From assembly GCF_013315695.1 (NCBI RefSeq), contig NZ_CP054353.1: a DNA stretch of 64,000 nucleotides. One strand, 5' to 3'. Under the pieces are notes generated by a model. It saw nothing but the letters and a program-made list of their open reading frames with translations, had not been told where the DNA came from and did no database searches. Positions within the stretch are counted from its first letter, which is position 1. Each line of letters begins with the position of its first letter. Shown here in pieces: positions 1 through 61,536 of the stretch. Both the position numbers and the translations under genes were made by a program. The DNA is from Escherichia coli (GTDB taxonomy: Bacteria > Pseudomonadota > Gammaproteobacteria > Enterobacterales > Enterobacteriaceae).

Positions 1-1
1 A

Positions 2-70: not shown

Positions 71-127
71 CACGTTATCAGGCCACCGCGTTGGCCTGAC
101 TGATTTCTTAATGAAAGGAACTGATTT

Positions 128-1156: not shown

Positions 1157-1164
1157 TCCGTGAG

Positions 1165-1193
1165 CGGGGGCGAAATGCCCCCGTGTCTTTTTT
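1165..1193 (+). terminator. Hairpin plus T-run immediately after capsid gene (terminator/attenuator)
   Basis: CGGGGGC-gaaat-GCCCCCG stem followed by TGTCTTTTTT. Confidence 0.55.
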
Positions 1194-1207
1194 CACAGGA
1201 GGCTGAG

Positions 1208-1937: not shown

Positions 1938-1952
1938 ACGCAGGGTGAAATT

Positions 1953-2920: not shown

Positions 2921-2927
2921 GGACGAT

Positions 2928-3674: not shown

Positions 3675-3692
3675 AGAGCTGAGAGATAAGCG

Positions 3693-7118: not shown

Positions 7119-7444
7119 AAACCTTTCGCTGGAAAGTGAAACCGGATATGGAGGTGAACTCGCAGCCATCGGTGCGTGAAGTGCGTTTTGGTGACGGGTA
7201 CTCACAGCGTATGGCGGCAGGGCTGAATGCTGACCTGAAAACATACAGGGTGACGCTTTCCGTGACCCGGGAGGAGGCCCGGCATCTGGAAGCGTTCCTG
7301 GCAGAGCACGGTGGCTGGAAGGCATTTTTGTGGAAGCCACCCTATGCATACCGGCAGATAAAGGTGACCTGTGCCGGGTGGTCTGCGCGGGTCGGGATGT
7401 TGCGCGTTGAGTTCAGCGCGGAGTTTAAGCAGGTGGTGAACTGA
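7115..7444 (+). CDS. M: Minor tail protein M
   Basis: 109 aa; position and similarity to lambda gpM. Confidence 0.85.
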   Translation: MKTFRWKVKPDMEVNSQPSVREVRFGDGYSQRMAAGLNADLKTYRVTLSVTREEARHLEAFLAEHGGWKAFLWKPPYAYRQIKVTCAGWSARVGMLRVEFSAEFKQVVN

Positions 7445-8142: not shown

Positions 8143-8147
8143 ATCCA

Positions 8148-8891
8148 ATGACACAGACAGAATCAGCGATTCTGGCGCATGCCCGGCGGTGTGTGCCTGC
8201 GGAGTCGTGCGGCTTAGTGGTGAGAACGCCGGAGGGGGAGCGGTATATCCCTTGTGTGAATATCTCTGCAGAGCCGGAGGCGTATTTTCGTATTGCACCG
8301 GAAGACTGGCTGCGGGCAGAGATGCAGGGGGAGATTGTGGCACTGGTCCACAGTCATCCCGGTGGGCTGCCCTGGCTGAGCGAGGCTGACCGGCGGCTGC
8401 AGATAAAAAGCGCACTGCCCTGGTGGCTGGTCTGCCGGGGTGACATTCACAAATTCCGCTGCGTGCCGCACCTGACGGGACGGCGCTTTGAGCACGGGGT
8501 GACGGACTGTTACACCCTGTTCCGGGATGCATACCATCTGGCGGGGACTGAAATGCCGGATTTTCATCGCGAGGATGACTGGTGGCGCAACGGTCAGAAC
8601 CTTTACCTGGACAATATGGCGGTCACCGGCTTTTACCGGGTGCCCCTGTCCTCTGCACAGGCGGGCGATATTCTGCTGTGCTGCTTTGGTGCTTCGGTAC
8701 CGAACCATGCCGCCATTTACTGCGGCAACGGTGAGCTGCTTCACCATCTGCCTGAACAACTGAGTAAACGGGAGAGGTATTCCGAAAAATGGCAACGACG
8801 AACGCATTCTGTCTGGCGTCACCGCCACTGGCACGCATCTGCCTTCACGGGGATTTGCAACGATTTGGCCGCCGCCTCAGCCTGTATGTGA
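8148..8891 (+). CDS. K: Tail tip assembly protein K (MPN/JAB plus NlpC/P60 domains)
   Basis: 247 aa; HSHP metal motif then Cys/His NlpC-like region; lambda gpK-like; 3' end overlaps I. Confidence 0.8.
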   Translation: MTQTESAILAHARRCVPAESCGLVVRTPEGERYIPCVNISAEPEAYFRIAPEDWLRAEMQGEIVALVHSHPGGLPWLSEADRRLQIKSALPWWLVCRGDIHKFRCVPHLTGRRFEHGVTDCYTLFRDAYHLAGTEMPDFHREDDWWRNGQNLYLDNMAVTGFYRVPLSSAQAGDILLCCFGASVPNHAAIYCGNGELLHHLPEQLSKRERYSEKWQRRTHSVWRHRHWHASAFTGICNDLAAASACM

Positions 8892-9469
8892 ACACGGCAG
8901 CGGAAGCCATTCGCGCCCTGTCGATGCAGATGCCGGGCTTTCGCCGTCAGATGAACGAAGGCTGGTACCAGATACGTATTGCCGGTGATGACACGGCACC
9001 GGAGGCGGTGTATGCCCGTCTTCACGAACAGCTGGGTGAGGGAACGGTCATCCACATTGTGCCGCGACTGGCCGGGGCCGGAAAGGGTGGACTGCAGATT
9101 GTGCTGGGGGCGGCAGCCATCGTGGGCTCTTTCTTCACGGCCGGAGGCTCGATGGCGTTATGGGGTACAGCCCTGAGTGCCGGTGGTTTTTCTGCCACCA
9201 CGATGCTGTTTTCACTGGGTGCCAGCATGATACTGGGCGGAGTGGCCCAGATGCTGGCCCCGAAGGCAAAAACACCGGATTACCGCGCAACGGATAACGG
9301 CAGACAGAACACGTACTTTTCCTCGCTGGATAACATGATTGCCCAGGGGAACCCGATGCCGGTGCCTTACGGGGAAATGCTGGTTGGCTCCCGCCGTATA
9401 TCCCAGGACATCAGCACCCGTGATGAAGGCGGGGGCGGAAAGGTCGTGGTTATCGGGCGGCAGGGGTAA
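8789..9469 (+). CDS. I: Tail tip assembly protein I
   Basis: 226 aa; ...ARICLHGDLQRFGRR... and Gly-rich hydrophobic middle match lambda gpI. Confidence 0.85.
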   Translation: MATTNAFCLASPPLARICLHGDLQRFGRRLSLYVNTAAEAIRALSMQMPGFRRQMNEGWYQIRIAGDDTAPEAVYARLHEQLGEGTVIHIVPRLAGAGKGGLQIVLGAAAIVGSFFTAGGSMALWGTALSAGGFSATTMLFSLGASMILGGVAQMLAPKAKTPDYRATDNGRQNTYFSSLDNMIAQGNPMPVPYGEMLVGSRRISQDISTRDEGGGGKVVVIGRQG

Positions 9470-9473
9470 AAAG

Positions 9474-9515
9474 AATAAAAAAATCCCGCAGTGATCGCGG
9501 ACAGGAACTGCGGGA
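9474..9515 (-). terminator. Hairpin with adjacent A-run (terminator-like when read on minus strand) in the I-J intergenic insert
   Basis: TCCCGCAG ... CTGCGGGA 8-bp stem, 16-nt loop, preceded on + strand by AATAAAAAAA. Confidence 0.35.
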
Positions 9516-9680
9516 GAGTTACGAAGATTAAGTGTAAGGAATTATTCTTATATCACGACAAAAAAATTAACGCAGAGAAATTATACGCGCCACAGTCAGT
9601 TTGTGAAAATGTGAAGATATTCAGAATTTTTATGCCATTACCGGTTTTAACCAACAGGATTATCGGTGGGCATGAAAGAA

Positions 9681-9715
9681 AACCCCGGTATCTGCTGATA
9701 CCGGGGTTTCTCTTT
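9681..9715. terminator. Perfect 11-bp palindromic hairpin flanked by A-rich and T-rich tracts (bidirectional terminator-like)
   Basis: AACCCCGGTAT-ctgctg-ATACCGGGGTT followed by TCTCTTT. Confidence 0.35.
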
Positions 9716-9812
9716 AGCATGGCAGAAATGTGTTTCATGCTTTTCGGGCGAAGGATATCCGACTTCTGTACGGAATGGCAAGTGGCGGTTAATTTATTCA
9801 GGGGAAGGCTGT

Positions 9813-12800
9813 ATGGGAAAAGGTGGCGGTAAGGCACACACGCCTCGTGAGGCGAAGGATAATCTCAAATCCACGCAGATGATGAGTGTGATTGATGCGA
9901 TTGGTGAGGGACCGATAGAAGGTCCGGTGAAGGGACTGCAGAGTATTCTGGTGAACAAAACCCCGCTGACGGACACGGACGGTAATCCCGTGATACACGG
10001 TGTGACTGCGGTCTGGCGTGCCGGGGAGCAGGAGCAGACACCACCGGAAGGCTTTGAGTCCTCCGGAGCTGAAACCGGACTGGGCGTGGAAGTGACGAAG
10101 GCAAAACCGGTGACGCGCACCATTACGTCCGCGAACATTGACCGCCTGCGGGTTACCTTCGGGGTGCAGTCACTGGTGCAGACCACGTCAAAGGGCGACC
10201 GTAATCCTTCCTCTGTCCGGATTCTGATTCAGTTACAGCGTAATGGCCGCTGGGTGACGGAAAAGGATGTCACCATTAACGGCAAGACCACCTCGCAGTT
10301 CCTGGCCTCGGTGATTCTGGATAATCTGCCTCCCCGGCCCTTTAACATCCGGATGGTCAGGGAGACGGCGGACAGCACCACGGACCAGCTGCAGAATAAG
10401 ACGCTGTGGTCGTCATACACCGAAATCATCGATGTGAAACAGTGCTACCCGAACACGGCCATTGTGGGGCTGCAGGTGGATGCGGAGCAGTTCGGCGGCC
10501 AGCAGATGACGGTGAACTACCATATCCGCGGTCGCATCATCCAGGTGCCGTCAAACTATGACCCGGAAAAACGCACGTACAGTGGTATCTGGGACGGCAG
10601 CCTGAAACCGGCATACAGCAACAACCCGGCCTGGTGTCTGTGGGACATGCTGACTCACCCGCGCTACGGCATGGGAAAACGTCTGGGGGCGGCGGATGTG
10701 GACAAGTGGGCGCTGTATGCCATCGGGCAGTACTGCGACCAGACGGTCCCGGATGGTTTCGGGGGGACCGAGCCGCGGATGACCTTTAATGCGTACCTGG
10801 CACAACAGCGTAAGGCGTGGGACGTTCTCAGTGATTTCTGCTCTGCGATGCGCTGTATGCCGGTATGGAACGGCCAGACGCTGACGTTCGTTCAGGACCG
10901 TCCGTCGGATGTGGTGTGGCCGTACACCAACAGCGATGTGGTGGTGGATGATAACGGCGTGGGTTTCCGCTACAGCTCCAGTGCCCTGAAGGACCGGCAC
11001 ACGGCAGTGGAGGTGAATTACACCGACCCGCAGAACGGCTGGCAGACCTCCACGGAACTGGTGGAAGACCCGGAAGCCATACTGCGCTACGGACGCAACC
11101 TGCTGAAGATGGACGCGTTCGGCTGTACCAGCCGCGGTCAGGCCCACCGTGCCGGGCTGTGGGTGATAAAGACCGAACTGCTGGAAACGCAGACGGTGGA
11201 TTTCACGCTTGGGTCACAGGGGCTGCGTCACACACCCGGTGACATCATTGAAATCTGTGATAACGACTATGCCGGGACCATGACCGGCGGACGTGTCCTG
11301 TCCATCGATGCCGCCAGCCGTACCCTGACGCTGGACCGGGAGGTGACACTGCCGGAGACCGGCACGGCCACTGTTAATCTGATTAACGGCAGCGGTAAGC
11401 CGGCGAGCGTGGCCATCACCGCACACCCCGCGCCTGACCGGATACAGGTCAGCACCCTGCCGGATGGTGTGGAGACATACGGTGTGTGGGGACTCTCCCT
11501 GCCGTCACTGCGTCGTCGCCTGTTCCGCTGTGTCTCCATCCGGGAAAACACGGACGGCACCTTTGCCATCACGGCGGTGCAGCACGTACCTGAAAAAGAA
11601 GCCATCGTGGATAACGGGGCCCGCTTTGAGCCGCAGTCAGGCACCCTGAACAGCGTTATCCCACCGGCAGTGCAGCACCTGACGGTGGAGGTGAGCGCAG
11701 CTGACGGCCAGTATCTGGCGCAGGCTAAATGGGACACGCCGCGGGTGGTGAAGGGCGTGCGCTTCAGTCTGCGCCTGACCAGTGGTAAGGGAACGGATGC
11801 CAGACTGGTGACCACCGCCATCACCGCAGACACGGAGCACCGTTTCAGCGGCCTGCCACTGGGGGAATACACCCTGACGGTGCGGGCCATTAACAGCTAC
11901 GGCCAGCAGGGCGAACCTGCGACCACCACCTTCCGGATTAACGCGCCTGCAAAACCCGCCACCATTGAGCTGACGCCGGGGTATTTTCAGATAACGGCGG
12001 TACCGGTGCTGGCGGTGTATGACCCGACGGTGCAGTTTGAATTCTGGTTCTCAGAAAAACGCATCACGAACACGGCACAGGTGGAAAAATCTGCCCGTTA
12101 TCTGGGGACCGGCAGTCAGTGGACTGTCCAGGGGAGCCGGATTAAGCCGGGGACGGATTTCTGGTTTTACGTGCGAAGCGTCAACCTGGTGGGAAAATCT
12201 GCTTTTGTGGAAGCCAGCGGGCAGCCCAGCAATGATGGTGAAGGGTATCTGGAAATTTTCCGGGGGCTGATAGATGAGACGCTTCTGGGGCAGGCACTGA
12301 AAGAGCGCATTGATGCTTCAGCGCTGCGTACGGAGGTCACGCAACTGGAAGAAGATATCCGTCAGCGGATGGACACGGATATCGCAGAAGTGACCCGGAA
12401 AATCGGGAAGGCGGAAAACAGCCTCACGCAGCTGGTTGCGAAAAAGAATGAGGACCAGACACTGGCCATCGCGCAGGTGAGCCAGAAAGTGGACCGGGTG
12501 AGCAGTGAAATCTCACAGACTGTCAGCCAGGGGCAGTCAGAAAACGCCCGACAGATAGCACAGGTCCGCCAGTACGTGGATAAAAAAGGGAGTGAAATTA
12601 CCTCGACCACGGATAAAAAGCTGGGTGACCAGGCCGTGACCATACAGCAAATCCAGCGGGTTCAGTCAGACACGCGCAATGAGCTGAATGCCATGTATAT
12701 GCTGAAGGTGCAGAAAACAAAAAACGGTATTCCCTATGTGGCCGGGATTGGCGCGGGGATTGAGGATGTTGATGGTCAGACCCTGAGTAACATTCTGCTG

Positions 12801-13505
12801 CAGGCCGATCGCATTGCGATGATTACCCCGGAGAACGGCAACACCACGCCGCTGTTTGTGGCGCAGGGGAATCAGCTGTTCATGAACGACGTGTTCCTGA
12901 AGCGACTGTTTGCGGTGAGCATCACGTCATCCGGCAATCCTCCGACGTTTTCCCTGACGCCGGATGGCAGGCTGACAGCCCGCAATGCGGATATCAGTGG
13001 AGCCATCACGGCGAATACCGGCACGCTCAATAATGTCACCATTAACGAGAACTGTGTCATCAGAGGGAAACTGTCTGCAAACCAGATTGAAGGCGATCTC
13101 GTTAAAACAGTGGGTAAGGCTTTCCCCCGTGACTCCCGTGCACCGAAGCGTTGGCCATCAGGAACCATTACCGTCAGGGTTTATGACGATCAGCCGTTTA
13201 ACCGGCAGATTGTTATTCCGGCGGTGGCTTTCAGCGGTGCCAGACATGAGCGGGAGAACAGCGATACTTATTCGTCATGCCGCCTGATAGTGAAGAAAAA
13301 CGGTGCTGAAATTTATAACCGTACCGCGATGGATAATACGCTGGTTTACAGTGGTGTTATTGATATGCCTGCTGGTCGCGGCCACATGACGCTGGAGTTT
13401 TCTGTATCAGCATGGTGGGTAAATGGCTGGTATCCCACAGCAAGTATCAGCGATTTGCTGGTTGTTGTGATGAAGAAAGCCACTGCAGGCATCACGATTA
13501 GCTGA
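9813..13505 (+). CDS. J: Host specificity / central tail fibre protein J
   Basis: 1230 aa; N-terminal 850 aa and C-terminal 270 aa colinear with lambda gpJ; extra coiled-coil segment in between. Confidence 0.95.
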
Positions 13506-13523
13506 ATTTTATAACCCCAATAC

Positions 13524-13548
13524 GGGCGCCAGAAATGGCGCCTTTTTT
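13524..13548 (+). terminator. Rho-independent terminator after J
   Basis: GGCGCC-agaaat-GGCGCC stem then TTTTTT. Confidence 0.6.
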
Positions 13549-13572
13549 ATTGCAGAAAAGCGAGAGGTAATT

Positions 13573-14172
13573 ATGCGTAAATTATGTGCAGCCATTTTGT
13601 CCGCAGCCATCTGTCTGTCCGTATCCGGTGCGCCTGCATGGGCGTCTGAACATCAGTCCACACTGAGCGCGGGGTATCTTCATGCCCGTACGAACGCTCC
13701 CGGCAGCGATAATCTGAACGGGATTAACGTGAAATACCGTTATGAGTTTACGGACACGCTGGGGCTGATTACGTCCTTCAGTTATGCCAATGCTGAGGAT
13801 GAGCAAAAAACGCACTACAACGATACCCGCTGGCATGAAGATTCCGTGCGTAACCGCTGGTTCAGCGTGATGGCGGGGCCGTCTGTACGCGTGAATGAAT
13901 GGTTCAGCGCGTATGCGATGGTGGGTGTGGCTTACAGCCGTGTGTCGACTTTCTCCGGGGATTATCTCCGCGTAACTGACAACAAGGGGAAAACGCACGA
14001 TGTGCTGACCGGAAGTGATGACGGTCGCCACAGCAACACGTCTCTGGCGTGGGGGGCTGGCGTGCAGTTTAACCCGACCGAATCCGTGGCCATTGATATT
14101 GCTTATGAAGGCTCCGGTAGTGGTGACTGGCGCACTGACGGTTTCATCGTGGGTGTCGGTTATAAGTTCTGA
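13573..14172 (+). CDS. lom: Outer membrane protein Lom (Ail/PagC family)
   Basis: 199 aa; nearly colinear with lambda Lom including signal peptide. Confidence 0.9.
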   Translation: MRKLCAAILSAAICLSVSGAPAWASEHQSTLSAGYLHARTNAPGSDNLNGINVKYRYEFTDTLGLITSFSYANAEDEQKTHYNDTRWHEDSVRNRWFSVMAGPSVRVNEWFSAYAMVGVAYSRVSTFSGDYLRVTDNKGKTHDVLTGSDDGRHSNTSLAWGAGVQFNPTESVAIDIAYEGSGSGDWRTDGFIVGVGYKF

Positions 14173-14198
14173 TTAGCCAGGTAACACAGTGTTATGAC

Positions 14199-14225
14199 AG
14201 CCCGCCGGTTCAGGCGGGCTTTTTT
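14199..14225 (+). terminator. Rho-independent terminator after lom
   Basis: AGCCCGCC-ggttca-GGCGGGCT stem then TTTTT. Confidence 0.65.
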
Positions 14226-14236
14226 GTGGAGTGGAT

Positions 14237-16303
14237 ATGGCAGCAGTAAAAATCTCAGGTGTGCTGAAAGATGGTGCGGGAAAACCAATACAGAACTGCA
14301 CTATTCAACTGAAGGCAAAGCGTAACAGCACCACGGTACTGGTGAACACGGTGGCCTCTGAAAATCCGGATGAAGCCGGGCGTTACAGCATGGATGTTGA
14401 GTATGGCCAGTACAGCGTCACCCTGCTGGTTGAAGGTTTTCCACCTTCACATGCCGGGACCATTACCGTCTATGAAGGTTCCAGACCAGGTACGCTGAAT
14501 GATTTTCTCGGTGCCATGACGGAGGATGATGTTCGTCCGGAGGCACTGCGCCGTTTTGAGCTGATGGTGAATGAAGTGGCACGTCATGCCGGAGCGTCAT
14601 CACAGAGTGCAGCGGCGGCAAAGAAATCCGAAACGGCAGCAGCCTCATCGAAGAATGCGGCGAAAACCTCAGAAACGAATGCAGCTAACAGCGCACAGGC
14701 GGCAGCGGCCTCGCAGACTGCATCGGCAAACTCCGCGACAGCAGCCAAAAAATCAGAAACCAGCGCGAAAAATAGCGAGACAGCCACAAAGGCCAGCGAA
14801 AAAAACGCAAAATCCAGCCAGACGGCAGCGAAAACCAGTGAGACGAATGCCAAAGACAGTGAAGCCAACGCAAAGGTGAGCGAAACAGCGGCGGCGAACT
14901 CGGCGAAAGCATCGGCAGCAAGCCAGACGGCAGCAAAAGCAAGTGAAGATGCTGCCAGAGAATACGCAAACCAGACAGCAGAGCCGTACAGATATGTTTT
15001 ACAGCCGCTGCCGGATGTGTGGATACCCTTTAATGATTCGCTGGATATGATTACGGGCTATTCTCCGGGTTATAAAAAAGTGAAGATTGGTGATAATGTG
15101 GTTCAGGTTGCCAGTGATAAACAGGTTAATTTCAGTCGCGCATCAACGGCAACATATATCAACAAATCTGGCGAACTGAAAACGGCGGAAATTAATGAGC
15201 CACGATTTGAGTGTGATGGCCTGCTTATTGAGGGGCAAAGAACGAACTTCTTCCCGAACAGTACAGACCCTTCGAAGTGGAATAAGTCAACTTCACTGGA
15301 CGTTACAGAAACAGGCACAGATAGTTTCGGGTTTAATTATGGCCGGTTTGTCGTACAGGATTCGATTGTTGGTACAAGTAAAGCGCATACCATTATCGGA
15401 CTGTATTCGAGTACCGGAGGGGTTGATACTTCAGGGGACGAAAAGCATGTAACTATATCCTGTCGGGTAAAAAGTGAAGTTGATAATATCGCCGTTCGTA
15501 TTTTATTTGAACATTATGATGGGGAGGTAAGGACATCAATAGGAGCAGCAAACCTGAACCTTACCACCCGCATAATTAGCAAGACAGGTCAGACAAGCCG
15601 TGTTACAGCAAGGTCTGTTAAGGATGATGCAACTGGCTGGATATTTTTTGAGGCTACATTAAAAGCAGATACAACAGAAAATACGGTTGGTGGTTTTGTC
15701 CAGTATTCTCCGGATACAGGGCAGATGGTTGCATCAGGGGATTATCTCGATGTAACCACTCCACAGATTGAGGCTGGTACAGGCGCATCATCTTTTATTG
15801 TTACGGGGACGGCACCGGTAACGCGGGCAAGCGATATGGTTACAGTTCCGATTAAGAATAATCTTTATAATCTTCCTTTTACGGTTCTTTGTGAGGTACA
15901 TAAGAACTGGTATAAAACGCCAAATGCAGCACCGCGTGTTTTTGACACATACCGGCATCAGGCAGATGCGGGGATCGTAATGGGGTTTGGTTCATCAGGT
16001 GGGTACGACGGTTTTCCGTATTGCGATATAGGTGGTTCAGACCGACGAATAAATGAAAATGCCGGGCTGGAAAAAATGCTTATTGGTATGCGGGTAAAGT
16101 CCGAACGGTCCACATGTGTAGTCAGTAACGGTAAGTTAAGCAGCGAAACTAAAACCAAATGGGAATATATCCGGAGTACAGCAACCATTCGCATTGGTGG
16201 ACAAACTACAGCAGGATTACGCCATTTATTTGGGCATGTGAGGAATTTTCGTCTCTGGCATAAAGAGCTAACAGATGCGCAGCTTGGGGAGGTTGTGGAG
16301 TGA
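14237..16303 (+). CDS. stf: Side tail fibre protein, lambda Stf-like N-terminus with divergent C-terminal receptor-binding domain
   Basis: First 120 aa match lambda Stf (AVKISGVLKDG...), then Ala/Ser/Thr-rich SETNA/AAKxSE repeats, then about 400 aa with no lambda counterpart; start set at ATG 14237. Confidence 0.75.
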   Translation: MAAVKISGVLKDGAGKPIQNCTIQLKAKRNSTTVLVNTVASENPDEAGRYSMDVEYGQYSVTLLVEGFPPSHAGTITVYEGSRPGTLNDFLGAMTEDDVRPEALRRFELMVNEVARHAGASSQSAAAAKKSETAAASSKNAAKTSETNAANSAQAAAASQTASANSATAAKKSETSAKNSETATKASEKNAKSSQTAAKTSETNAKDSEANAKVSETAAANSAKASAASQTAAKASEDAAREYANQTAEPYRYVLQPLPDVWIPFNDSLDMITGYSPGYKKVKIGDNVVQVASDKQVNFSRASTATYINKSGELKTAEINEPRFECDGLLIEGQRTNFFPNSTDPSKWNKSTSLDVTETGTDSFGFNYGRFVVQDSIVGTSKAHTIIGLYSSTGGVDTSGDEKHVTISCRVKSEVDNIAVRILFEHYDGEVRTSIGAANLNLTTRIISKTGQTSRVTARSVKDDATGWIFFEATLKADTTENTVGGFVQYSPDTGQMVASGDYLDVTTPQIEAGTGASSFIVTGTAPVTRASDMVTVPIKNNLYNLPFTVLCEVHKNWYKTPNAAPRVFDTYRHQADAGIVMGFGSSGGYDGFPYCDIGGSDRRINENAGLEKMLIGMRVKSERSTCVVSNGKLSSETKTKWEYIRSTATIRIGGQTTAGLRHLFGHVRNFRLWHKELTDAQLGEVVE

Positions 16304-16578
16304 GAGATTTCACGTTGCGTTTCAGTGATAAAGCAGATTTCAGGGCATTTCTCAGGAAACTTAACTGGGAAGAGGACGAAGAGCTGCAGAATGCCGTTCT
16401 GGTTGATGAGATTGGTTTTACGTTCAGGGAGACAGATGTTTCTGATGACGGAGAACCAGAATACACGCGAAACGAAGGGTACTTTGTTAATATCCGTCTT
16501 CTTGACGATGGATTTGATGATTCCGTGTTCCGTGAGTGGGTGGTTACACCAGAGCGCCCGCTCAGGGAGTGGTTTTAA
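16300..16578 (+). CDS. Hypothetical acidic protein (92 aa) downstream of stf
   Basis: ORF overlapping stf stop by 4 nt (translational coupling); occupies the tfa position but is shorter and unlike lambda Tfa. Confidence 0.4.
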   Translation: MRDFTLRFSDKADFRAFLRKLNWEEDEELQNAVLVDEIGFTFRETDVSDDGEPEYTRNEGYFVNIRLLDDGFDDSVFREWVVTPERPLREWF

Positions 16579-16587
16579 GGATAGCAG

Positions 16588-16875
16588 ATGGATATCACGT
16601 CGATACTTCATGCGCTTTGTGCCGTAGCGGTGCAGGTACTGGCTGGTCTTTTTACCGGAAACTGGGCTTACGGTGCGATAGCCGGTTGTACGTTCTTCAT
16701 TGCGCGTGAACACACCCAGGCAGAATATCGCTGGATTGAAATGTTTGGGCATGGCAAGAGGATTAACATGCCGTGGTGGGGCGGTTTTGATCCGCGCGTG
16801 TGGGATGTGGCAAGCCTGATGGATTTTGCTGTGCCGGTGGTGGCGTGTCTGCTGATCTGGATGTTGATCCGTTAA
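16588..16875 (+). CDS. Hypothetical small membrane protein (95 aa)
   Basis: Two predicted hydrophobic segments at N- and C-termini; last ORF before att. Confidence 0.4.
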   Translation: MDITSILHALCAVAVQVLAGLFTGNWAYGAIAGCTFFIAREHTQAEYRWIEMFGHGKRINMPWWGGFDPRVWDVASLMDFAVPVVACLLIWMLIR

Positions 16876-17224
16876 ATATAAAAAGTAAAAAGCCGCAGTA
16901 ACTTGTCATGACAGGATACTGCGGCTGGCTGGTTAACTTTCGATAGTGCGAGTATTGAATGATTTCCAGCTGTTACTGATTTTATATAACTGCAGTGGAA
17001 TTATTCAACACACAGGCAAAACGGAATAAGCTGAGAAAAAAAGCGTGCTTTCCCAATCTGGGGTAAATCACATCTGAATGACACCTGAAAACAGGTGGTG
17101 GCCTCAAGAAGGCTTGGAATATTCTTCTTTAATGTTATGTAATTTATTGATTTTTCGTGTACGATTTTAAGACATTTATTCCAAGAAAAATTTTTAACTC
17201 TTTGATTTTTCGACTCTGTATCAT

Positions 17225-29404: not shown

Positions 29405-30313
29405 TGCATCCTGAATAACTGGCGCGACAACGGGTTTGGCCGGGAAGAGATATTTTCCCAACGTGACCAGTACCACCGCGAAAACAATTACGCCGAGCGC
29501 CAGCCATTCAATTTTCGACAGCGTTTCGCCACCCAGTCCCGTACCCAGCAAGACCGCGACCACCGGGTTAACGTAGGCGTAGCTGGTGGCGAGAGCCGGA
29601 CTGACATTACGGATTAAATACATATAAGCGTTAATGGCGATAATCGAACCAAACAGCGCCAGATAGCCGACCGCAAGGAAGCCTGACAGGGAAGGGAGCG
29701 CCGTCAGTTTTTCACCCGCAATCATCGATGCGATCATTAACACCACGCCTGCCGCCAGCATCTCAATCGCACCCGCCATCATCCCTACAGGTAAGGTAAT
29801 GCGCGAGCCATAAACTGAGCCAAACGCCCAGCTAATCGAGCCGATTAAAATCAGAATCGCGCCCCACGGATTGCCGCTTAAATTTCCACCGCTATTGAGC
29901 ATGATGATTCCGGCAAGCCCAATGGCGATACCCACCCATTCCAGTTTGCGCGTTTTAATGCCAAACAGGCGGCTGAAGCACAGGGTAAAGAGGGGCACGG
30001 TTGCAACCACTACGGCGGCGATGCCGGAAGGAACATTTTGATGTTCGGCAACCGTCACCATGCCATTACCGACAGCCAGCAATAACAGGCCAATCAGCGC
30101 GGCATTGAGCAGCGGACGTAGCGGGGGAAGTTTGTGTCCGCGCAGTAGCAAAAATGCCAGCAATAAAATACCGGCTGCCAGGAATCGAACGCCCGCCATC
30201 ATTAACGGAGGCCAGCTTTCCACGCCAATCCGAATGACAAAATAGGTTGAGCCCCAAATGATATACAACGCAAACAGCGCGCCAAAAAGCGGTAACAACT
30301 GGCGGAAACGCAT
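29393..30313 (-). CDS. yedA: EamA/DMT-family transporter YedA
   Basis: 306 aa, 10 TM-like segments; matches E. coli YedA. Confidence 0.9.
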   Translation of the reverse strand: MRFRQLLPLFGALFALYIIWGSTYFVIRIGVESWPPLMMAGVRFLAAGILLLAFLLLRGHKLPPLRPLLNAALIGLLLLAVGNGMVTVAEHQNVPSGIAAVVVATVPLFTLCFSRLFGIKTRKLEWVGIAIGLAGIIMLNSGGNLSGNPWGAILILIGSISWAFGSVYGSRITLPVGMMAGAIEMLAAGVVLMIASMIAGEKLTALPSLSGFLAVGYLALFGSIIAINAYMYLIRNVSPALATSYAYVNPVVAVLLGTGLGGETLSKIEWLALGVIVFAVVLVTLGKYLFPAKPVVAPVIQDASSE

Positions 30314-31834: not shown

Positions 31835-32626
31835 GTGCAGCACGAGACAAAAATGGAAAACCAGAGCTGGTTGAAAAAACTCGCACGCCGCCTGGGGCCT
31901 GGTCATATCGTTAATCTCTGCTTTATCGTGGTATTGCTTTTTTCCACCTTGCTCACCTGGCGTGAAGTGGTGGTGCTGGAAGATGCCTATATCTCCAGCC
32001 AGCGTAATCATCTGGAAAACGTAGCCAACGCGCTCGATAAGCATTTGCAGTATAACGTCGACAAACTGATCTTTTTGCGTAATGGCATGCGCGAAGCTCT
32101 CGTGGCGCCACTGGATTTCACCTCTCTGCGTAATGCCGTAACCGAGTTCGAACAGCATCGCGACGAGCACACCTGGCAAATCGAACTCAACCGACGGCGC
32201 ACCCTGCCAGTCAATGGCGTATCGGATGCATTAGTCAGCGAGGGGAATCTCCTGTCTCGCGAAAATGAAAGCCTCGACAATGAAATTACCGCTGCACTGG
32301 AAGTTGGTTACTTGCTGCGACTGGCGCACAACTCCTCGTCGATGGTTGAACAGGCGGTGTATGTCTCGCGTGCTGGATTTTACGTTTCGACGCTGCCGAC
32401 CTTGTTTACGCGCAATGTACCAACGCGTTATTACGGCTATGTCACCCAACCCTGGTTTATCGGCCATTCACAACGAGAAAATCGTCACCGCGCGGTACGC
32501 TGGTTCACTTCGCAACCGGAACACGCCAGCAATACTGAACCGCAGGTTACCGTCAGTGTTCCGGTAGACAGTAATAACTACTGGTTGATCAGACATGAGA
32601 TAAATGAAGGGGGATCCGTGAGATAA
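31835..32626 (+). pseudogene. dgcQ: Diguanylate cyclase DgcQ (YedQ), 5' fragment only (periplasmic sensor domain); truncated by prophage insertion
   Basis: About 264 codons matching the DgcQ N-terminal region, then a premature stop in phage-derived sequence; no TM or GGDEF domain follows. Confidence 0.8.
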
Positions 32627-55521: not shown

Positions 55522-55772
55522 TGAAAGAATACCGCTATTCCGGCCCGGCCAGCGGCGTCACGCTGTCGGACGGAACCGAAATCCTGCTCTGGCCGGGGAA
55601 GACGGTTTCCCTGCCGGAGGAGCATGACTACGTGAAGGTACTGGTGGCGCTGAAACATCTGACGCCGGTACCTGAAGAGACTAAACCCGCCGGCACACCG
55701 GCTGTGCAGTCACCAAAGCGCAGAAGCAGCAGTGACAGCGAAGTGAAAACGGAGGACACCCATGGCAGCTAA
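55518..55772 (+). CDS. Small protein (Mu gp38 position)
   Basis: 84 aa, ATGA-coupled. Confidence 0.5.
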   Translation: MMKEYRYSGPASGVTLSDGTEILLWPGKTVSLPEEHDYVKVLVALKHLTPVPEETKPAGTPAVQSPKRRSSSDSEVKTEDTHGS

Positions 55773-57189
55773 CTATCTGCATGGTCCCGAAACCATTGAG
55801 GTGGAAAACGGTGCCCGCCCGGTTAAAACGGTGAAATCTGCCGTTATTGGCCTGATTGGTACCGCCCCGATGGGGGATGTCAATACGCTGGTACAGTGCC
55901 TGTCTGAGAAAGACGCAGCGGCATTTGGCAGCCAGTTCACCGGCTTTACCATTCCGCAGGCGCTGGATGCGATTTATGACCATGGTGCAGGTATCGTTCT
56001 GGTCATTAACGTCCTCGACCCGGCGAAACATAAAACGGCGATCGAGGATGAGGTGGTTACCTTTGACAAATCGACAGGGCAGGCCAGACTGGCGCATCCG
56101 GTTGTCGCTAATGTGGTGGTGAAAAACAGTGAAGGCAGCACCTCCCACACGGCGAACACGGACTACCGTGTTGATGCGCAGGCGGGTGTGCTCACGAACC
56201 TGGGCAAGGCTATTGAGGCCGGTGGCAGCGTGAAGGTGAGCTATGAGTACGCGGACCCGTCGAAGGTGACTGCGGCGGACATCATCGGCGGGGTGAACAG
56301 CGCCGGAAACCGAACCGGCATGAAGCTGCTTAACGACAGCTTCAACCTGTACGGCTATTTCGCCAAAATTCTGATTGCGCCGGTGTTCTGCACCCAGAAG
56401 AGTGTCGCAGTTGAGCTTATCGCCATGGCAGAGAAGCTGGGCGCGGTAACCTACATTGATGCGCCTGTCGGTACCACCTTTGCACAGGCTCTGGCAGGTC
56501 GTGGCCCGGAAGGCACCATCAACTTCAATACCAGCTCCGACCGCGTCCGTCTGTGCTATCCGCATGTGAAGGTATATGACCCGGTGACAAACACAGAGCG
56601 TCTGGAGCCGCTCAGCCAGCGTGCAGCAGGTCTGCGTGCCAGAGTCGATCTGGACAAGGGCTACTGGTGGTCATCCTCCAATCAGGAGATTCTGGGGATC
56701 ACTGGCGTGGAGCGCCAGCTGTCCGCGATGATTGATGACCCGCAGAGTGAGGTGAACCTGCTTAACGAACAGGGGATCACCACGGTATTCAGCAGTTACG
56801 GCAGCGGCCTTCGTCTGTGGGGTAACCGGACGGCAGCATGGCCAACGGTCACCCATATGCGTAACTTTGAGAACGTTCGCCGCACCGGTGATGTGATCAA
56901 CGAGTCCATTCGTTATTTCAGCCAGCAGTACATCGACATGCCGATTACTCAGGCGCTGATTGATGCACTGACGGAGTCGGTCAACGCCTACGGTCGCAAA
57001 ATGACTGGTGATGGTGCGGTACTGGGCTTCCGTTGCTGGTTTGATCCGGCCCGCAATCCGGAGACGGAGCTGGCCGCCGGGCACCTGTTGCTGAGCTACA
57101 AATATACGCCACCACCGCCGCTGGAGCGACTGACGTTTGAGACTGAGATCACCTCGGAATACCTGTTAACCCTGAAAGGGGGCAACTGA
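55762..57189 (+). CDS. Contractile tail sheath protein (Mu L family)
   Basis: 475 aa; similarity to Mu/P2-type sheath proteins. Confidence 0.9.
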   Translation: MAANYLHGPETIEVENGARPVKTVKSAVIGLIGTAPMGDVNTLVQCLSEKDAAAFGSQFTGFTIPQALDAIYDHGAGIVLVINVLDPAKHKTAIEDEVVTFDKSTGQARLAHPVVANVVVKNSEGSTSHTANTDYRVDAQAGVLTNLGKAIEAGGSVKVSYEYADPSKVTAADIIGGVNSAGNRTGMKLLNDSFNLYGYFAKILIAPVFCTQKSVAVELIAMAEKLGAVTYIDAPVGTTFAQALAGRGPEGTINFNTSSDRVRLCYPHVKVYDPVTNTERLEPLSQRAAGLRARVDLDKGYWWSSSNQEILGITGVERQLSAMIDDPQSEVNLLNEQGITTVFSSYGSGLRLWGNRTAAWPTVTHMRNFENVRRTGDVINESIRYFSQQYIDMPITQALIDALTESVNAYGRKMTGDGAVLGFRCWFDPARNPETELAAGHLLLSYKYTPPPPLERLTFETEITSEYLLTLKGGN

Positions 57190-57710
57190 TGTCAAAGATT
57201 GAGATAAACCGCATCACGAATGCCAACATCTATCTGGATGGTACTAACCTGCTGGGACGGGCTGAGGAAGTTAAACTCCCCGATGTCTCCATGATTATGC
57301 AGGAACACAAGGCGCTGGGGATGGTGGGTAAGGTGGAACTCCCGGCTGGTTTTGACAAACTGGAAGGCGAAATCAAATGGAACAGCTTTTACCGCGATGC
57401 GATGCTGTCTGCCGCGAACCCGTACAGGTCGCTGGCACTGCAGTGTCGTTCCAGCGTCCAGCGCTACAGCTCGCAGGGGCTGATTGACGAAATCCCGCTG
57501 GTCACCTTCCTGACGATTATGTTCAAGAAGAACCCGCTGGGGACGTTCAAACAGCACGAGAACGCCGAGTTCTCCAGTAGCTTCACCTGCACGTATATCA
57601 GACAGGTACTGGATGGTGAAGAGCTGCTGCAACTGGACTATCTGGCCAACATCTTCCGGGTCGGCGGTGTTGATCAACTGACTGACTACCGTATCAATAT
57701 CGGGGGCTGA
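57189..57710 (+). CDS. Tail tube protein (Mu M family)
   Basis: 173 aa; position after sheath. Confidence 0.85.
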   Translation: MSKIEINRITNANIYLDGTNLLGRAEEVKLPDVSMIMQEHKALGMVGKVELPAGFDKLEGEIKWNSFYRDAMLSAANPYRSLALQCRSSVQRYSSQGLIDEIPLVTFLTIMFKKNPLGTFKQHENAEFSSSFTCTYIRQVLDGEELLQLDYLANIFRVGGVDQLTDYRINIGG

Positions 57711-58091: not shown

Positions 58092-58427
58092 ATGTCACAG
58101 ACCCCATCCGATACTTTTAAATTGTCTTATCCCTTCACCACTGCTGCAGGCACCAGAATTGAGCTGGTTGAACTGAAACGCCTGACGGTAAAAGACCTGA
58201 AGCAGGTGCGCAAAATCAGCAAAAACCCGGCAGACTGGGACGAACCGCTGATTGCCCGCAGTACTGGTCTTCTCCCGGAAGATCTCGACAATATGGATCT
58301 GGCTGATTACCTGCAGTTACAGAAACGATTTCAGCTCATCACGGGGATGGGTGAGAGCAACCAGGGCGCTGACGCAGGCGCAGGGGCTGCTGGCGAGATG
58401 GTTCCGGTTTCAGCCGGGGGAGATTGA
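58092..58427 (+). CDS. Tail assembly chaperone (Mu gp41 / lambda G analogue)
   Basis: 111 aa directly upstream of tape measure gene. Confidence 0.7.
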   Translation: MSQTPSDTFKLSYPFTTAAGTRIELVELKRLTVKDLKQVRKISKNPADWDEPLIARSTGLLPEDLDNMDLADYLQLQKRFQLITGMGESNQGADAGAGAAGEMVPVSAGGD

Positions 58428-58509
58428 TGCCCTCGATACTGACGATCTGGAGATGTGGCTGGAGCAGGCTGAAGAGCAAATAAAAAGCGAGTACGGCGAC
58501 AAATCATAG
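58252..58509 (+). other. Overlapping +1-frame ORF: likely C-terminal extension of the tail chaperone produced by programmed frameshift
   Basis: Frame +1 relative to chaperone, open across its stop (58425-58427) to 58509; G-rich run GCCGGGGGAGATTGA at the end of frame 0. Confidence 0.5.
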
Positions 58510-58584: not shown

Positions 58585-61536
58585 ATGTCGGGACAGTTTT
58601 CAGTCGGCGTTGTTATCGGCGGGATGATTGGCAGCACATTCCGTTCTGCAATGAGCGGTACCCGCCGTGCGCTTGATTCCCTGAGCGATACCTCACGCCG
58701 CCTGCAGGAACGTCAGAACGCTTTAACCCGTGCAACAGAACGTTATGGTCAACTGGGTTCTTCCCGGATGCAGCATCTCAACAGCGAGCTGCTGCGGGTA
58801 AGCCGCACCATGGAGCAAATTGAGCGCCAGCAGCGCCGTCTGTCAGCGGCATCCGCTACCAGTGATGCGCTGAAAGCTAACCGCATGGCGCTGTATGGTC
58901 AGGGGATTGAAGCGTATGGCATGGCACAGACTGTTTATCATACGGTTTCCCCTGCCGTTCAGCAGTCCATGTCTTTTCAGGACAAAATGATTGATATGTC
59001 GATCACCGCAAAATATGACAATAAAACGCGGGATGCACTTGCCGGACAGATAAAAGGCTGGGCGCTTAAATACAATCAGTATCAGGATGAGCTGCAGGAG
59101 GCGGTGGGTTCACTCATCAGCGACAATATTGATAATGTGTCAGATATCGGTTTTCTGATGCCGGATATTGCCCGCGCGGCAACGGCAACACGCACGTCTG
59201 CTCAGGACTGGGCAAAAGTGGCCGCAGTCTGGCAAAACTCCCTGAAAGGTGCGGCCAGAGATTTTGGTGCCGTTCAGAATATTATGGCTTATGCCGGTGA
59301 CCAGGGGTCATTTGAAATCCCGGATCAGGTCAAGTGGATGCAGTCCCTGGCCCCAATGATGGCGGGTATTGCCAGTGGAAAAGAGGCTGTTGCTGAAATC
59401 GGGGCCAGTCTCCAGATAGCAAAAATCGGTGCAGGTTCCACCGACGAAGCAGCTAATAATTTTAAAAACTTTCTTACCAAAATTTTTGCCCGCGATACTC
59501 AGAAACAGTTTGCTGATCTGGGTATTGATTTGCAGGGATCTATTGCGAGTTATAAAGCTGCGGGGATCTCTCCGATTGAAGGGATGTTGAGTGTTATAGA
59601 ACGTTACCTCAATGCCAAAAGCCCCGAAGCGCTGGCCGGCTTCAAATCAGCCATGAAAATAAAGAATGATACGGCAAGAGATGAGGCACTTCAGGCTCTG
59701 GCGAAAAACTTTGGTCTGGGCGATATGTTCGCGGATATGCAGGTCATGGCATTTATCCGCCCGATGCTGGCCAACATGGACAGATATCGAGAGATCCGTG
59801 CCGGTGCTCTCAGGGCTGCGGATAACGATTTGCTTGCCAGTGCTTATGATCAGCGGCTGAAATCTCCCCTTGAAGCCACTAAAACACTTATGGTCAGCAG
59901 TCGCGATCTGGCAATTACGCTGGGCGATCAATTAGCTCCATCTTTTATTTCTTTGACTCAGGAACTGCTTCCACTCATTCAGGGGGCAAAACACTGGGTA
60001 GCGACTCACCCGCAATTTGTCAGTGGGGCTTTTAAGCTCATCAGTGCGCTCCTTGCGATTAAGATAGCGACTGTTGGTCTCAAACTGGGGCTGAATCTCC
60101 TTATTTCCCCCTTTGTAAGTGTCTGGAAAAATGCTGTTTTACTTCGGGCCAACTGGCTTCGTCTGTCGCTCGCACTGGGGCAAGGCGGTAAGCTCCGCTG
60201 GCTGGTGACCGGATTTAGCGCCGTCGCCAGAGGAGCCAGAACACTGAGTGGCGTGCTCTCCGGGGGGCTGGTTCGCGGAATTATGCTCGCCGGACGTGCT
60301 GTTCTCTGGATTGGACGTGCGCTGATGATGAATCCCATCGGTCTCGTTATCACCGCTGTCGCGGCAGCAGCTTACCTTATCTACCGCAACTGGGGGGCAG
60401 TCAGTGGCTGGTTTAAACAGCGCTGGGCAGACATTCAGGAAGCCTTTAACGGCGGCATTGTGGGAATTGGTAAGTTACTGATTAACTGGTCGCCGGCAGG
60501 CCTGCTCTATAAAGCCTTTGCGGCTGCGCTGAAATATTTCGGCGTTGCTCTGCCGGCAAAGTTCACCGACTTCGGTGGCCATCTTATCGACGGTCTGATT
60601 AACGGTATCAAAAACAAATGGGGGTCGCTCAAATCCAGTGTAACCGGAATGGGTGACAGCATCAGTAGCTGGTTTAAACAGTGCTGGGCTGACATTCAGG
60701 AAGCCTTTAACGGCGGTATCGCGGGAACTGGTAAGCTGCTGATTAACTGGTCGCCGGCAGGTCTGCTCTATAAAGCCTTTGCAGCTGCGCTGAAATATCT
60801 TGGTGTTGATCTGCCGGCAAAGTTCACCGACTTCGGTGGCCATCTTGTCGACGGTCTGATTAACGGTATCAAAAACAAATGGGAGTCGCTCAAATCCAGT
60901 GTAACCGGAATGGGTGACAGCATCAGTGGCTGGTTCAGCGAAAAGCTGGGCATTCATTCGCCGAGCCGCGTGTTTATGGGCTTTGGTGACAATATCGCGC
61001 AGGGGGCCGCCATTGGCCTGCAGCGGACCACTCCGCTTGCAGCTCTGGCCGGGCAGCGAATGGCCAGTGAACTGCTCCCCAAAATGCCCGTGAGCATTCA
61101 GGGGCCAGAAATACGGGATAACACTTCAGGTGTTCGCTTCAGTATGCCGTTGCCCGATATCAATGGGTTTATGTCGTCTGCTAAAAATGCGATCGGAGCC
61201 GTAATCAATAGTTTGTCTTCCATGCCCGCTATCCCGCTCTCCACCCGGGCATCGATTTTACCAGGGCAACGTCTGGCAAATGAGATGACACCGGATGTTC
61301 CCCGTATCCCCTCGCCTGAAATCATGGCTGCCGGATATTCAGGCCGTGGTGCAGCTGCAACCGGCGGTGGAACGTCTGGTGGTATCCAGGTCAGCTTTAA
61401 TCCTCAGTTTTTCCTCAATGGCAGGGAAACCACAGCGCCTGCAGGACTGACTGGTGCCCTGAATATGAGTCTGCATGAGCTGGAAAAAATGCTGGAGCGT
61501 CTGCTGGCTCAGAAACAACGTAAGGAGTACCGCTGA
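58585..61536 (+). CDS. Tail tape measure protein
   Basis: 983 aa; long helical protein with hydrophobic central segments between chaperone and baseplate genes. Confidence 0.9.
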   Translation: MSGQFSVGVVIGGMIGSTFRSAMSGTRRALDSLSDTSRRLQERQNALTRATERYGQLGSSRMQHLNSELLRVSRTMEQIERQQRRLSAASATSDALKANRMALYGQGIEAYGMAQTVYHTVSPAVQQSMSFQDKMIDMSITAKYDNKTRDALAGQIKGWALKYNQYQDELQEAVGSLISDNIDNVSDIGFLMPDIARAATATRTSAQDWAKVAAVWQNSLKGAARDFGAVQNIMAYAGDQGSFEIPDQVKWMQSLAPMMAGIASGKEAVAEIGASLQIAKIGAGSTDEAANNFKNFLTKIFARDTQKQFADLGIDLQGSIASYKAAGISPIEGMLSVIERYLNAKSPEALAGFKSAMKIKNDTARDEALQALAKNFGLGDMFADMQVMAFIRPMLANMDRYREIRAGALRAADNDLLASAYDQRLKSPLEATKTLMVSSRDLAITLGDQLAPSFISLTQELLPLIQGAKHWVATHPQFVSGAFKLISALLAIKIATVGLKLGLNLLISPFVSVWKNAVLLRANWLRLSLALGQGGKLRWLVTGFSAVARGARTLSGVLSGGLVRGIMLAGRAVLWIGRALMMNPIGLVITAVAAAAYLIYRNWGAVSGWFKQRWADIQEAFNGGIVGIGKLLINWSPAGLLYKAFAAALKYFGVALPAKFTDFGGHLIDGLINGIKNKWGSLKSSVTGMGDSISSWFKQCWADIQEAFNGGIAGTGKLLINWSPAGLLYKAFAAALKYLGVDLPAKFTDFGGHLVDGLINGIKNKWESLKSSVTGMGDSISGWFSEKLGIHSPSRVFMGFGDNIAQGAAIGLQRTTPLAALAGQRMASELLPKMPVSIQGPEIRDNTSGVRFSMPLPDINGFMSSAKNAIGAVINSLSSMPAIPLSTRASILPGQRLANEMTPDVPRIPSPEIMAAGYSGRGAAATGGGTSGGIQVSFNPQFFLNGRETTAPAGLTGALNMSLHELEKMLERLLAQKQRKEYR
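60408..60929 (+). repeat. Tandem direct duplication (2 x 261 bp, about 95 percent identical) inside the tape measure gene
   Basis: Unit WFKQ(R/C)WADIQEAFNGGI(V/A)G(I/T)GKLLINWSPAGLLYKAFAAALKY... repeated in frame; second copy begins near 60669. Confidence 0.85.

What the first reader, a model, noticed from the sequence alone, without database searches (positions are those of the whole stretch)
60408..60929. Tandem 261-bp in-frame duplication within the Mu-like tape measure gene
Two adjacent, about 95 percent identical 87-codon units are present in frame. Tape measure length sets tail length, so the duplication would lengthen the tail by roughly 13 nm if real. The two copies differ at several positions, arguing against a trivial assembly duplicate and for an older duplication.
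Basis: seen in the sequence. Interest (0 to 1): 0.45.

Follow-up and report, generated by a model that had tools for sequence, protein, structure and literature searches.

The report
Copy-variable 87-codon repeat in tape measure
The tail-length "ruler" gene of a Mu-like prophage in E. coli really does carry two in-frame copies of an 87-codon block, and related prophages carry one to four copies, so this is a natural length polymorphism of a known, fairly ordinary kind.

Summary
A 261-nt unit occurs twice in tandem at window 60401-60922, and the array runs to 60935. The copies differ at 17 of 261 nt (93.5% identity, not about 95%) with no indels. The repeat is in frame in the 983-aa tape measure gene (58585-61536, +) of a BcepMu-like transposable prophage inserted in dgcQ.

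It is not an assembly artefact. A spread sample of 55 complete E. coli genomes gave 3 one-copy, 39 two-copy, 12 three-copy and 1 four-copy alleles. Homologous proteins fall at 896, 983 and 1070 aa.

Single-copy units are chimeras with a unit-1 5' part and a unit-2 3' part. Middle units of three-copy alleles are the reverse chimera. Crossover points differ between alleles, and prophages with nearly identical flanks differ in copy number. This indicates an old duplication (dS 0.17, dN/dS 0.24) followed by recurrent unequal homologous recombination.

The unit is a conserved tape-measure module. It was found in 577 protein clusters, with one to four full units per protein among the 150 best.

About 13 nm of extra tail per unit (roughly 3 sheath rings) is a reasonable inference but was not tested. 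Variable repeats in tape measure proteins are well known, so this is a new member of a known kind and of modest interest.

The parts
58585..61536 (+). Tail tape measure protein gene (983 aa)
   Evidence: ORF. PF10145 PhageMin_Tail over residues 159-340. TIGR01760 tape_meas_TP901. phrog_28 and other tape measure PHROGs. RefSeq product WP_016234462.1, 'phage tail tape measure protein'.
60403..60663 (+). Repeat unit 1 (87 codons, residues 607-693), codon-phased
60664..60924 (+). Repeat unit 2 (87 codons, residues 694-780); 17 nt and 8 aa differences from unit 1
60401..60413 (+). 13-nt boundary motif TCAGTGGCTGGTT (encodes S-G-W-F) at the start of the array
   Evidence: The same motif sits at both ends of the single 261-nt unit in single-copy alleles, and at 12/13 identity in outgroup L011 (9/13 at the 3' end of L012).
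60662..60674 (+). Internal unit boundary, TCAGTAGCTGGTT (S-S-W-F)
60923..60935 (+). 13-nt boundary motif after the array (start of a further unit, then divergence into SEKLGIHSPS)
59995..60402 (+). Hydrophobic, membrane-like region of the tape measure protein (residues ~471-606) just upstream of the repeat; 84% identical to the outgroup protein
   Evidence: Translation; alignment with L011/L012
60925..60975 (+). Conserved SGWFSEKLGIHSPSRVF motif that follows the module in most family members
   Evidence: family consensus ...GWFKxxL...
58092..58427 (+). Tail assembly chaperone (P2 gpE / Mu gp41 type) upstream of the tape measure gene
   Evidence: PF10109 Phage_TAC_7, 74.8 bits; phrog_166
55762..57710 (+). 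Tail sheath and tail tube genes (contractile tail)
   Evidence: phrog_23 tail sheath; RefSeq 'tail sheath' and 'major tail tube protein'

Best explanation
The feature is a real, in-frame, copy-number-variable tandem repeat of an 87-residue conserved module in the tape measure protein of a BcepMu-like, contractile-tailed transposable prophage of E. coli.

Shown: the module is present once in diverged relatives. There it is already bracketed by a near-identical 13-nt direct repeat 261 nt apart, which is a likely substrate for the first duplication by slipped mispairing. The first duplication is old, and both copies are under purifying selection. Since then, unequal homologous recombination between the 93.5%-identical units has repeatedly contracted the array to 1 unit and expanded it to 3 or 4. 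Gene conversion has also patched units.

Inferred: tape measure length sets tail length at about 0.15 nm per residue. Each unit should therefore add about 13 nm, or about 3 tube/sheath rings, so the prophage population should carry a tail-length polymorphism. The window's allele is the common two-unit form.
For: The repeat and its reading frame are established.

Copy number in proteins and genomes:
- Homologous proteins cluster at 896, 983 and 1070 aa, and these carry 1, 2 and 3 units respectively.
- A flank-only query against complete E. coli genomes gave spans of 1861, 2122, 2383 and 2643 nt. These correspond to 1, 2, 3 and 4 units, in 3, 39, 12 and 1 of the 55 sampled genomes.
- The four-unit allele is annotated as an intact 1157-aa tape measure protein.
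- All nine alleles examined keep the reading frame open.

Evidence for unequal recombination:
- At the 17 diagnostic sites, one-copy units read 1111111111|2222222 or 11|222222222222222.
- Middle units of three-copy alleles read 22222221|211111111 or 2|1211.... These are the reciprocal chimeras expected from unequal crossing-over, and the crossover points differ.
- The same pattern appears at protein level in 120 homologues.
- Copy number differs between prophages with near-identical flanks. The window (2 units), L004 (3) and L007/L008 (1) differ by at most 6 nt per 800-nt flank. L010 (2) and L009 (1) have identical flanks.

Age, selection and origin:
- dS is 0.168, dN is 0.041 and dN/dS is 0.24.
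- The 13-nt repeat is at both ends of the unit in single-copy alleles. In outgroup L011 the two ends match 12/13; in L012 the 3' end matches only 9/13.

The unit as a family module:
- The module is found in 577 clusters at 50% identity. Among the 150 best, 123 carry one full unit, 25 two, 1 three and 1 four.

Ruler constant:
- TP901-1 deletion and insertion mutants change tail length in proportion to protein size: 118 nm over about 810 length-determining residues. Hydrophobic-region deletions also shorten the tail (PMC5099701).
- phiCbK tail lengths fit the alpha-helical estimate (PMC3556154).
- The extended sheath rise is about 39 Å per ring in a myovirus (PMC11948020).
Against: - No tail length was measured. 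The conformation of this module inside the tail is unknown.
- The AlphaFold model of the unit is low-confidence (pLDDT 58). It shows four helices with breaks rather than one continuous helix, so the extension per residue could be below 0.15 nm.
- The module is strongly conserved in sequence across the family. That hints at a specific function beyond acting as a spacer.
- The genome sample is dominated by clonal ST131-type strains, so the copy-number frequencies are not independent counts.
- Chimeric units could partly reflect gene conversion rather than crossing-over.
Confidence: 0.72

Rival explanations
1. The module is a functional domain of the tape measure protein, for example a membrane-inserting or channel-forming helical hairpin next to the hydrophobic region. 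On this reading it folds compactly. Copy number then changes some post-ejection property and has little or no proportional effect on tail length.
For: Sequence is highly conserved across distant family members, with a consensus of ...NWSPLGLFYxAFAxVL..FG..LP..FT.FG... and invariant P39, P59 and G66. The module lies directly after the hydrophobic region. The AlphaFold model shows four helices separated by breaks at GG, SP and LP (low confidence).
Against: In TP901-1, deletions in a hydrophobic region next to the repeats also shorten the tail in proportion. The module tolerates 1-4 copies with open reading frames, which is easier to reconcile with an additive ruler than with a domain of fixed stoichiometry.
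Confidence: 0.2
2. The variation is neutral drift in prophages that no longer make virions, so the copy number has no phenotype.
For: Most data come from prophages, not from particles. One three-copy allele (ZH063) is annotated as a pseudogene.
Against: dN/dS between units is 0.24. The frame is open in all nine alleles examined. The prophage in the window has a full gene set. A 96.7%-identical phage, PhiKM, was deposited as an isolated phage from uropathogenic E. coli.
Confidence: 0.06
3. There was one ancient, now fixed duplication. Single-copy alleles are simply the ancestral state and three-copy alleles arose from one further duplication. This is the static picture implied by the first reader.
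For: Diverged relatives (L011, L012) have one unit. Units differ at 6.5% of sites, so the first event is old.
Against: Single-copy units inside the two-copy lineages are unit-1/unit-2 chimeras with at least three different crossover points. Their flanks are identical or nearly identical to those of two-copy alleles. Middle units of three-copy alleles have several different mosaic patterns.
Confidence: 0.03
4. The second copy is an assembly artefact.
For: The related phage record PhiKM has a sequencing gap exactly in this repeat, which shows that short-read assembly struggles here.
Against: The copies differ at 17 sites. The same two-unit structure occurs in 39 of 55 sampled complete genomes from many laboratories, and 43 of the 120 listed homologous protein clusters are 983 aa long.
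Confidence: 0.01

Closest known systems
Tape measure proteins with variable numbers of tandem repeats (Belcaid, Bergeron & Poisson 2011, PMC3271669; TP901-1 tape measure protein, Mahony et al. 2016, PMC5099701)
   Same: In-frame tandem repeats inside a tape measure gene. Copy number differs between related phages through duplication and loss. The repeats are proposed to make tail length easy to change.
   Different: Those repeats are 11 or 18 residues long and are marked by periodic Trp/Phe. Here the unit is an 87-residue conserved module with only weak, non-significant 11/18-residue aromatic spacing. The host phage has a contractile tail.
Phage lambda gpH and TP901-1 engineered tape measure deletions and duplications (Katsura & Hendrix 1984, as cited in PMC3271669; Pedersen et al., as cited in PMC5099701)
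   Same: In-frame length changes of the tape measure protein. These give the expected rule of about 0.15 nm of tail per residue.
   Different: Those are laboratory constructs in siphoviruses. Here the length variants are natural alleles segregating in E. coli prophages, and no tail was measured.
Burkholderia phage BcepMu gp44 / phiE255 gp18 tape measure proteins (genus Bcepmuvirus and relatives)
   Same: Homologous protein (33-36% identity over residues 1-816) in the same gene order within a Mu-like transposable phage with a P2-type tail module.
   Different: The aligned span in BcepMu (2262 nt for 816 query residues) fits a single unit. The tandem array is a feature of the E. coli lineage.
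Escherichia phage PhiKM (PQ738613)
   Same: 96.7% nucleotide identity over the whole gene, with the same tail gene order.
   Different: Its record is interrupted by a sequencing gap in the repeat, so its copy number is unknown.

Membership tests
Phage tail tape measure protein (PF10145 / TIGR01760) | Match to the family profile above the curated cut-off | tested here: met
   PF10145 at 74 bits against a cut-off of 33.2. TIGR01760 at 58.6 bits against a cut-off of 28.8.
Phage tail tape measure protein (PF10145 / TIGR01760) | Gene lies after the sheath, tube and tail-chaperone genes and before the baseplate/hub genes | tested here: met
   Order is sheath, tube, PF10109 chaperone, tape measure, then gpU-, X-, D-, V-, W-, J- and I-like genes.
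Phage tail tape measure protein (PF10145 / TIGR01760) | Long, mostly alpha-helical protein with hydrophobic segments | tested here: inconclusive
   A hydrophobic stretch at residues ~471-606 is visible in the translation. The unit model is all-helical but has a pLDDT of only 58. No solved relative was found.
Phage tail tape measure protein (PF10145 / TIGR01760) | Protein length determines tail length | not testable with these tools
   Needs EM of particles from alleles with 1-4 units.
Tape measure proteins with 11/18-residue Trp/Phe periodic repeats (Belcaid 2011 type) | Variable number of in-frame tandem repeats among related phages | tested here: met
   1-4 units among E. coli prophages.
Tape measure proteins with 11/18-residue Trp/Phe periodic repeats (Belcaid 2011 type) | Repeat period of 11 (or 11-11-18) residues anchored on W/F | tested here: not met
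   The period is 87 residues. W/F autocorrelation at lags 11 and 18 is 3 observed against 1.2 expected (shuffle fractions 0.09 and 0.10), which is not significant. TRF finds no shorter period.
Mu-like (BcepMu-type) transposable prophage | DDE transposase, MuB-type ATPase, Mor activator and Gam | tested here: met
   Pfam matches are rve 35.9 bits, AAA_22 73 bits, Phage_Mu_Gam 138.7 bits and Mor 146.4 bits. RefSeq annotation agrees.
Mu-like (BcepMu-type) transposable prophage | Insertion by transposition: short target-site duplication flanking TG...CA ends, at a non-att site | tested here: met
   dgcQ is split. ACTGGT is present on both sides of an element that begins TGATCAG and ends GCATCA. 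The right end lies outside the window and was read from L002.
Mu-like (BcepMu-type) transposable prophage | Tape measure protein homologous to that of BcepMu | tested here: met
   tblastn gives 33.2% identity over residues 1-816 to BcepMu gp44, E = 2e-72. No coliphage Mu record is among the 40 rows listed, and 162 further records were not inspected.

The most novel reading that the evidence does not exclude
The 87-residue module may act as a natural 'tail-length cassette'. Frequent unequal recombination would then give this widespread E. coli prophage family, including the ST131-associated one, a heritable and reversible tail-length polymorphism of 1-4 units, or about 13 nm (roughly 3 sheath rings) per step. 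That polymorphism could be under selection, for example to match the thickness of host capsule or O-antigen. It would be a contingency-locus-like mechanism acting on virion geometry in a contractile-tailed phage.
Probability: 0.12. Interest if true: 0.6.

Novelty: new member of a known kind. Interest (0 to 1): 0.27.

Why it matters
If tail length does track unit number, these prophages offer a ready-made allelic series of 1, 2, 3 and 4 units with near-identical flanks. That series could test the ruler model in a contractile-tailed, Mu-like phage. It could also show whether tail length affects host range or adsorption through capsule and O-antigen.

In practice, the repeat is a known trouble spot for short-read assembly. 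The PhiKM record has a gap there. It could also serve as a typing marker for this prophage family. Otherwise it illustrates a familiar principle: repeats in tape measure genes expand and contract.

Tried and rejected
- **Internal half-unit repeat of about 43 aa.** The local alignment score of the two halves was 27, against 21.9 ± 4.3 for shuffles (fraction 0.13). This is not supported.
- **11/18-residue aromatic periodicity.** It is weak and not significant.
- **Solved structures.** A sequence search of the PDB with the whole protein found nothing at E ≤ 0.01.
- **Structure prediction.** An AlphaFold model of one unit, built with a 59-sequence alignment, reached only pLDDT 58. I therefore ran no fold search, and I use only the helical tendency, with caution.
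- **Recent duplications in other lineages.** I compared units within and between proteins for the multi-unit representatives. Three apparent 100% within-protein identities (P0138, P0172, P0246) were artefacts: I had extended overlapping envelopes, and I discarded them. The remaining cases range from 31% to 93% (31-72% outside the E. coli fragment P0121).
- **Literature.** Searches for a description of this particular polymorphism, or of phage PhiKM, found no relevant paper.
- **Assembly artefact.** Rejected on population evidence.
Full report
**1. The observation**

Tandem Repeats Finder reports a single array at window 60401-60935: period 261 nt, 2.0 copies, 93% matches, no indels, score 951. 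It is the only array scoring 80 or more in the 64-kb window. The repeat finder gives two copies, 60401-60661 and 60662-60922. The alignment has 17 mismatches in 261 columns, which is 93.5% identity.

The array lies in the ORF 58585-61536 (+), which encodes 983 aa. In codon phase the units are 60403-60663 (residues 607-693) and 60664-60924 (residues 694-780), with 8 amino-acid differences. A 13-nt motif, TCAGTGGCTGGTT, begins unit 1 and recurs immediately after unit 2. The internal boundary reads TCAGTAGCTGGTT. Its '95%' is slightly high.

**2. What the gene and its surroundings are**

The ORF matches PF10145 at 74 bits (cut-off 33.2) and TIGR01760 at 58.6 bits (cut-off 28.8). It also matches many tape measure PHROGs.

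The gene follows the sheath gene, the tube gene and a PF10109 chaperone of the P2 gpE / Mu gp41 type. It precedes gpU-, X-, D-, V-, W-, J- and I-like genes.

The window is 100% identical over the 1101-nt query (window 60100-61200) to E. coli isolate AF3, NZ_OZ547117.1.

The prophage encodes Mor, Mu Gam, an rve-domain transposase and an AAA_22 ATPase. It splits dgcQ. ACTGGT is present on both sides of an element that begins TGATCAG and ends GCATCA.

The nearest deposited phage, PhiKM, is 96.7% identical and is classified in Bcepmuvirus. Its record has a sequencing gap in exactly this repeat. The protein is 33% identical to BcepMu gp44 over residues 1-816. 'Mu-like' is therefore right in the BcepMu sense, and the tail module is of the P2 type.

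**3. The repeat is real and its copy number varies**

A protein search returned homologues that cluster at 896, 983 and 1070 aa. An ungapped scan with the unit finds exactly 1, 2 and 3 units in these classes.

A query made only of the 800-nt left and right flanks matched 635 of 5426 complete E. coli genomes, 586 of them over at least 80% of the query. In the evenly spread sample of 55 full-length rows, the spans were as follows:

| Span (nt) | Units | Genomes |
|---|---|---|
| 1861 | 1 | 3 |
| 2122 | 2 | 39 |
| 2383 | 3 | 12 |
| 2643 | 4 | 1 |

The four-unit allele, in strain LR-31, is annotated as an intact 1157-aa tape measure protein. These counts are not phylogenetically independent, because many two-unit rows are ST131 clones. 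An assembly artefact is excluded.

**4. How the variation arises**

I scored each unit at the 17 sites that distinguish the window's units ('1' for the unit-1 state, '2' for the unit-2 state).

- One-copy alleles read 1111111111|2222222 (L007, L008) or 11|222222222222222 (L009).
- The middle units of three-copy alleles read 22222221|211111111 (L004) or 2|1211... (L005, L006).
- Their first and last units remain unit-1-like and unit-2-like.

These are the two reciprocal products expected from unequal crossing-over between misaligned units, and the crossover points differ. The 120 homologous proteins show the same thing, with several distinct mosaics in each class.

Copy number differs among prophages whose flanks are nearly identical. 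The window (2 units), L004 (3) and L007/L008 (1) differ by at most 6 nt per 800-nt flank. L010 (2) and L009 (1) have identical flanks. The ST131-type unit 1 carries a central block of unit-2 states, which indicates gene conversion. All nine alleles keep the frame open in the stretch examined.

**5. Age and origin**

Between the window's units there are 9 synonymous and 8 non-synonymous differences. This gives dS 0.168, dN 0.041 and dN/dS 0.24, so both copies are under purifying selection.

The unit-specific states are shared by two flank lineages that differ at 8% of the left flank. The first duplication therefore predates their split.

A more diverged prophage type (L011 and L012, with a tape measure protein of 821 aa) has one unit, 86-87% identical. 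It carries a mixture of unit-1 and unit-2 states, as expected of an outgroup. In L011 the unit is already bracketed by the 13-nt motif at 12/13 identity, 261 nt apart; in L012 the 3' copy matches only 9/13. This makes slipped mispairing between these short repeats a plausible origin of the first duplication. That step is an inference.

**6. The unit is a family module**

A search with the 87-residue unit against 1.84 billion representative proteins found 577 clusters at E ≤ 0.001 and 322 at E ≤ 1e-10. Among the best 150, 123 have one full unit, 25 have two, one has three and one has four.

Some relatives have duplications with other boundaries or periods. P0122 has four units with a period of about 76 residues and 60-66% identity. 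P0142 repeats only the first ~40 residues.

The consensus is ...W..I..AF.GGI.GI..LI.NWSPLGLFY.AFA.VL..FG..LP..FT.FG...I.GL..GI.......K..I...G.S..GWFK..L. Duplication of this module therefore recurs across the family.

**7. Function**

The step from protein length to tail length is inferred, not tested.

- In TP901-1, in-frame deletions and insertions change tail length proportionally. That is 118 nm for about 810 length-determining residues, or about 0.146 nm per residue. A deletion in a hydrophobic region also shortens the tail. The authors suggest that repeats facilitate gain and loss of length (PMC5099701).
- The lambda precedent and the variable repeats in tape measure proteins are summarised in PMC3271669.
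- phiCbK tails fit the alpha-helical estimate (PMC3556154).

On this basis 87 residues would add about 13 nm. With an extended sheath rise of about 39 Å per ring (PMC11948020), that is roughly 3 rings.

Some cautions apply. The AlphaFold model of the unit is all-helical but has a pLDDT of only 58 and shows helix breaks. No solved relative exists. The module's strong conservation may reflect a role beyond that of a spacer.

**8. Comparison and verdict**

Variable tandem repeats in tape measure genes, and their link to tail length, are established. This case differs in its unit: an 87-residue conserved module rather than 11/18-residue aromatic repeats. W/F periodicity at lags 11 and 18 is not significant. 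It also differs in its host, a contractile-tailed Mu-like prophage. The population record is unusually clear, with 1-4 units and reciprocal chimeras.

I found no paper describing this particular polymorphism.

It is a new member of a known kind and of modest interest.

Noticed in passing
window 61090-61302 (tape measure protein residues ~836-906): A second length difference in the same gene. A segment of about 71 aa is absent from the related L011/L012 tape measure proteins. It is bracketed by similar short motifs (LAGQRMASE... and ...LPGQRLANE). This suggests another indel mediated by short direct repeats.
   Followed up: partly
window 58915-59994 (tape measure protein residues 111-470): The central part of the protein, including the PF10145 region, is only about 30% identical to the L011-type protein. 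The N-terminus (86%), the hydrophobic region (84%) and the C-terminus (90-92%) are close. The gene is therefore a recombinational mosaic.
   Followed up: partly
window 58092-58509: The gpE-type tail chaperone ORF ends at 58427. The overlapping ORF that looks like its extension (...WFRFQPGEIDALDTDDLEMWLEQAEEQIKSEYGDKS) is in the +1 (equivalently -2) frame, not the canonical -1 frame. A run of five G at 58416-58420 lies in the overlap. RefSeq annotates only the short product.
   Followed up: partly
window 32580-32592, and L002 ~29970-29985 (right end, outside the window): This is the prophage-chromosome junction inside dgcQ. The hexamer ACTGGT is on both sides of an element that starts TGATCAG and ends GCATCA. 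That is a transposition-type target duplication with TG...CA ends.
   Followed up: partly
window 1-16900: The window also holds the tail half of an unrelated lambdoid prophage (major capsid to tail fibre, with Lom). It has its own 1075-aa tape measure gene at 4110-7337, which contains no tandem array scoring 80 or more.
   Followed up: no
L001 (PQ738613, phage PhiKM) 4914-5240: The deposited PhiKM genome has its tape measure gene split by a sequencing gap exactly where the repeat lies. Its copy number is therefore unknown, and the annotation shows two partial tape measure CDSs.
   Followed up: no
L005 (NZ_CP014522, strain ZH063): The three-unit tape measure gene is annotated as a pseudogene ('missing C-terminus'). 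The frame is nevertheless open through the array to the normal stop in the 2.4-kb stretch I examined. The cause of the pseudogene call was not found.
   Followed up: no
P0138, P0142, P0172, P0246 (distant tape measure proteins): Distant relatives carry partial duplications of the same module with different boundaries. Examples are second copies that start at model position 13-18, and three copies of only the first ~40 residues. Duplication breakpoints are therefore not fixed across the family.
   Followed up: partly
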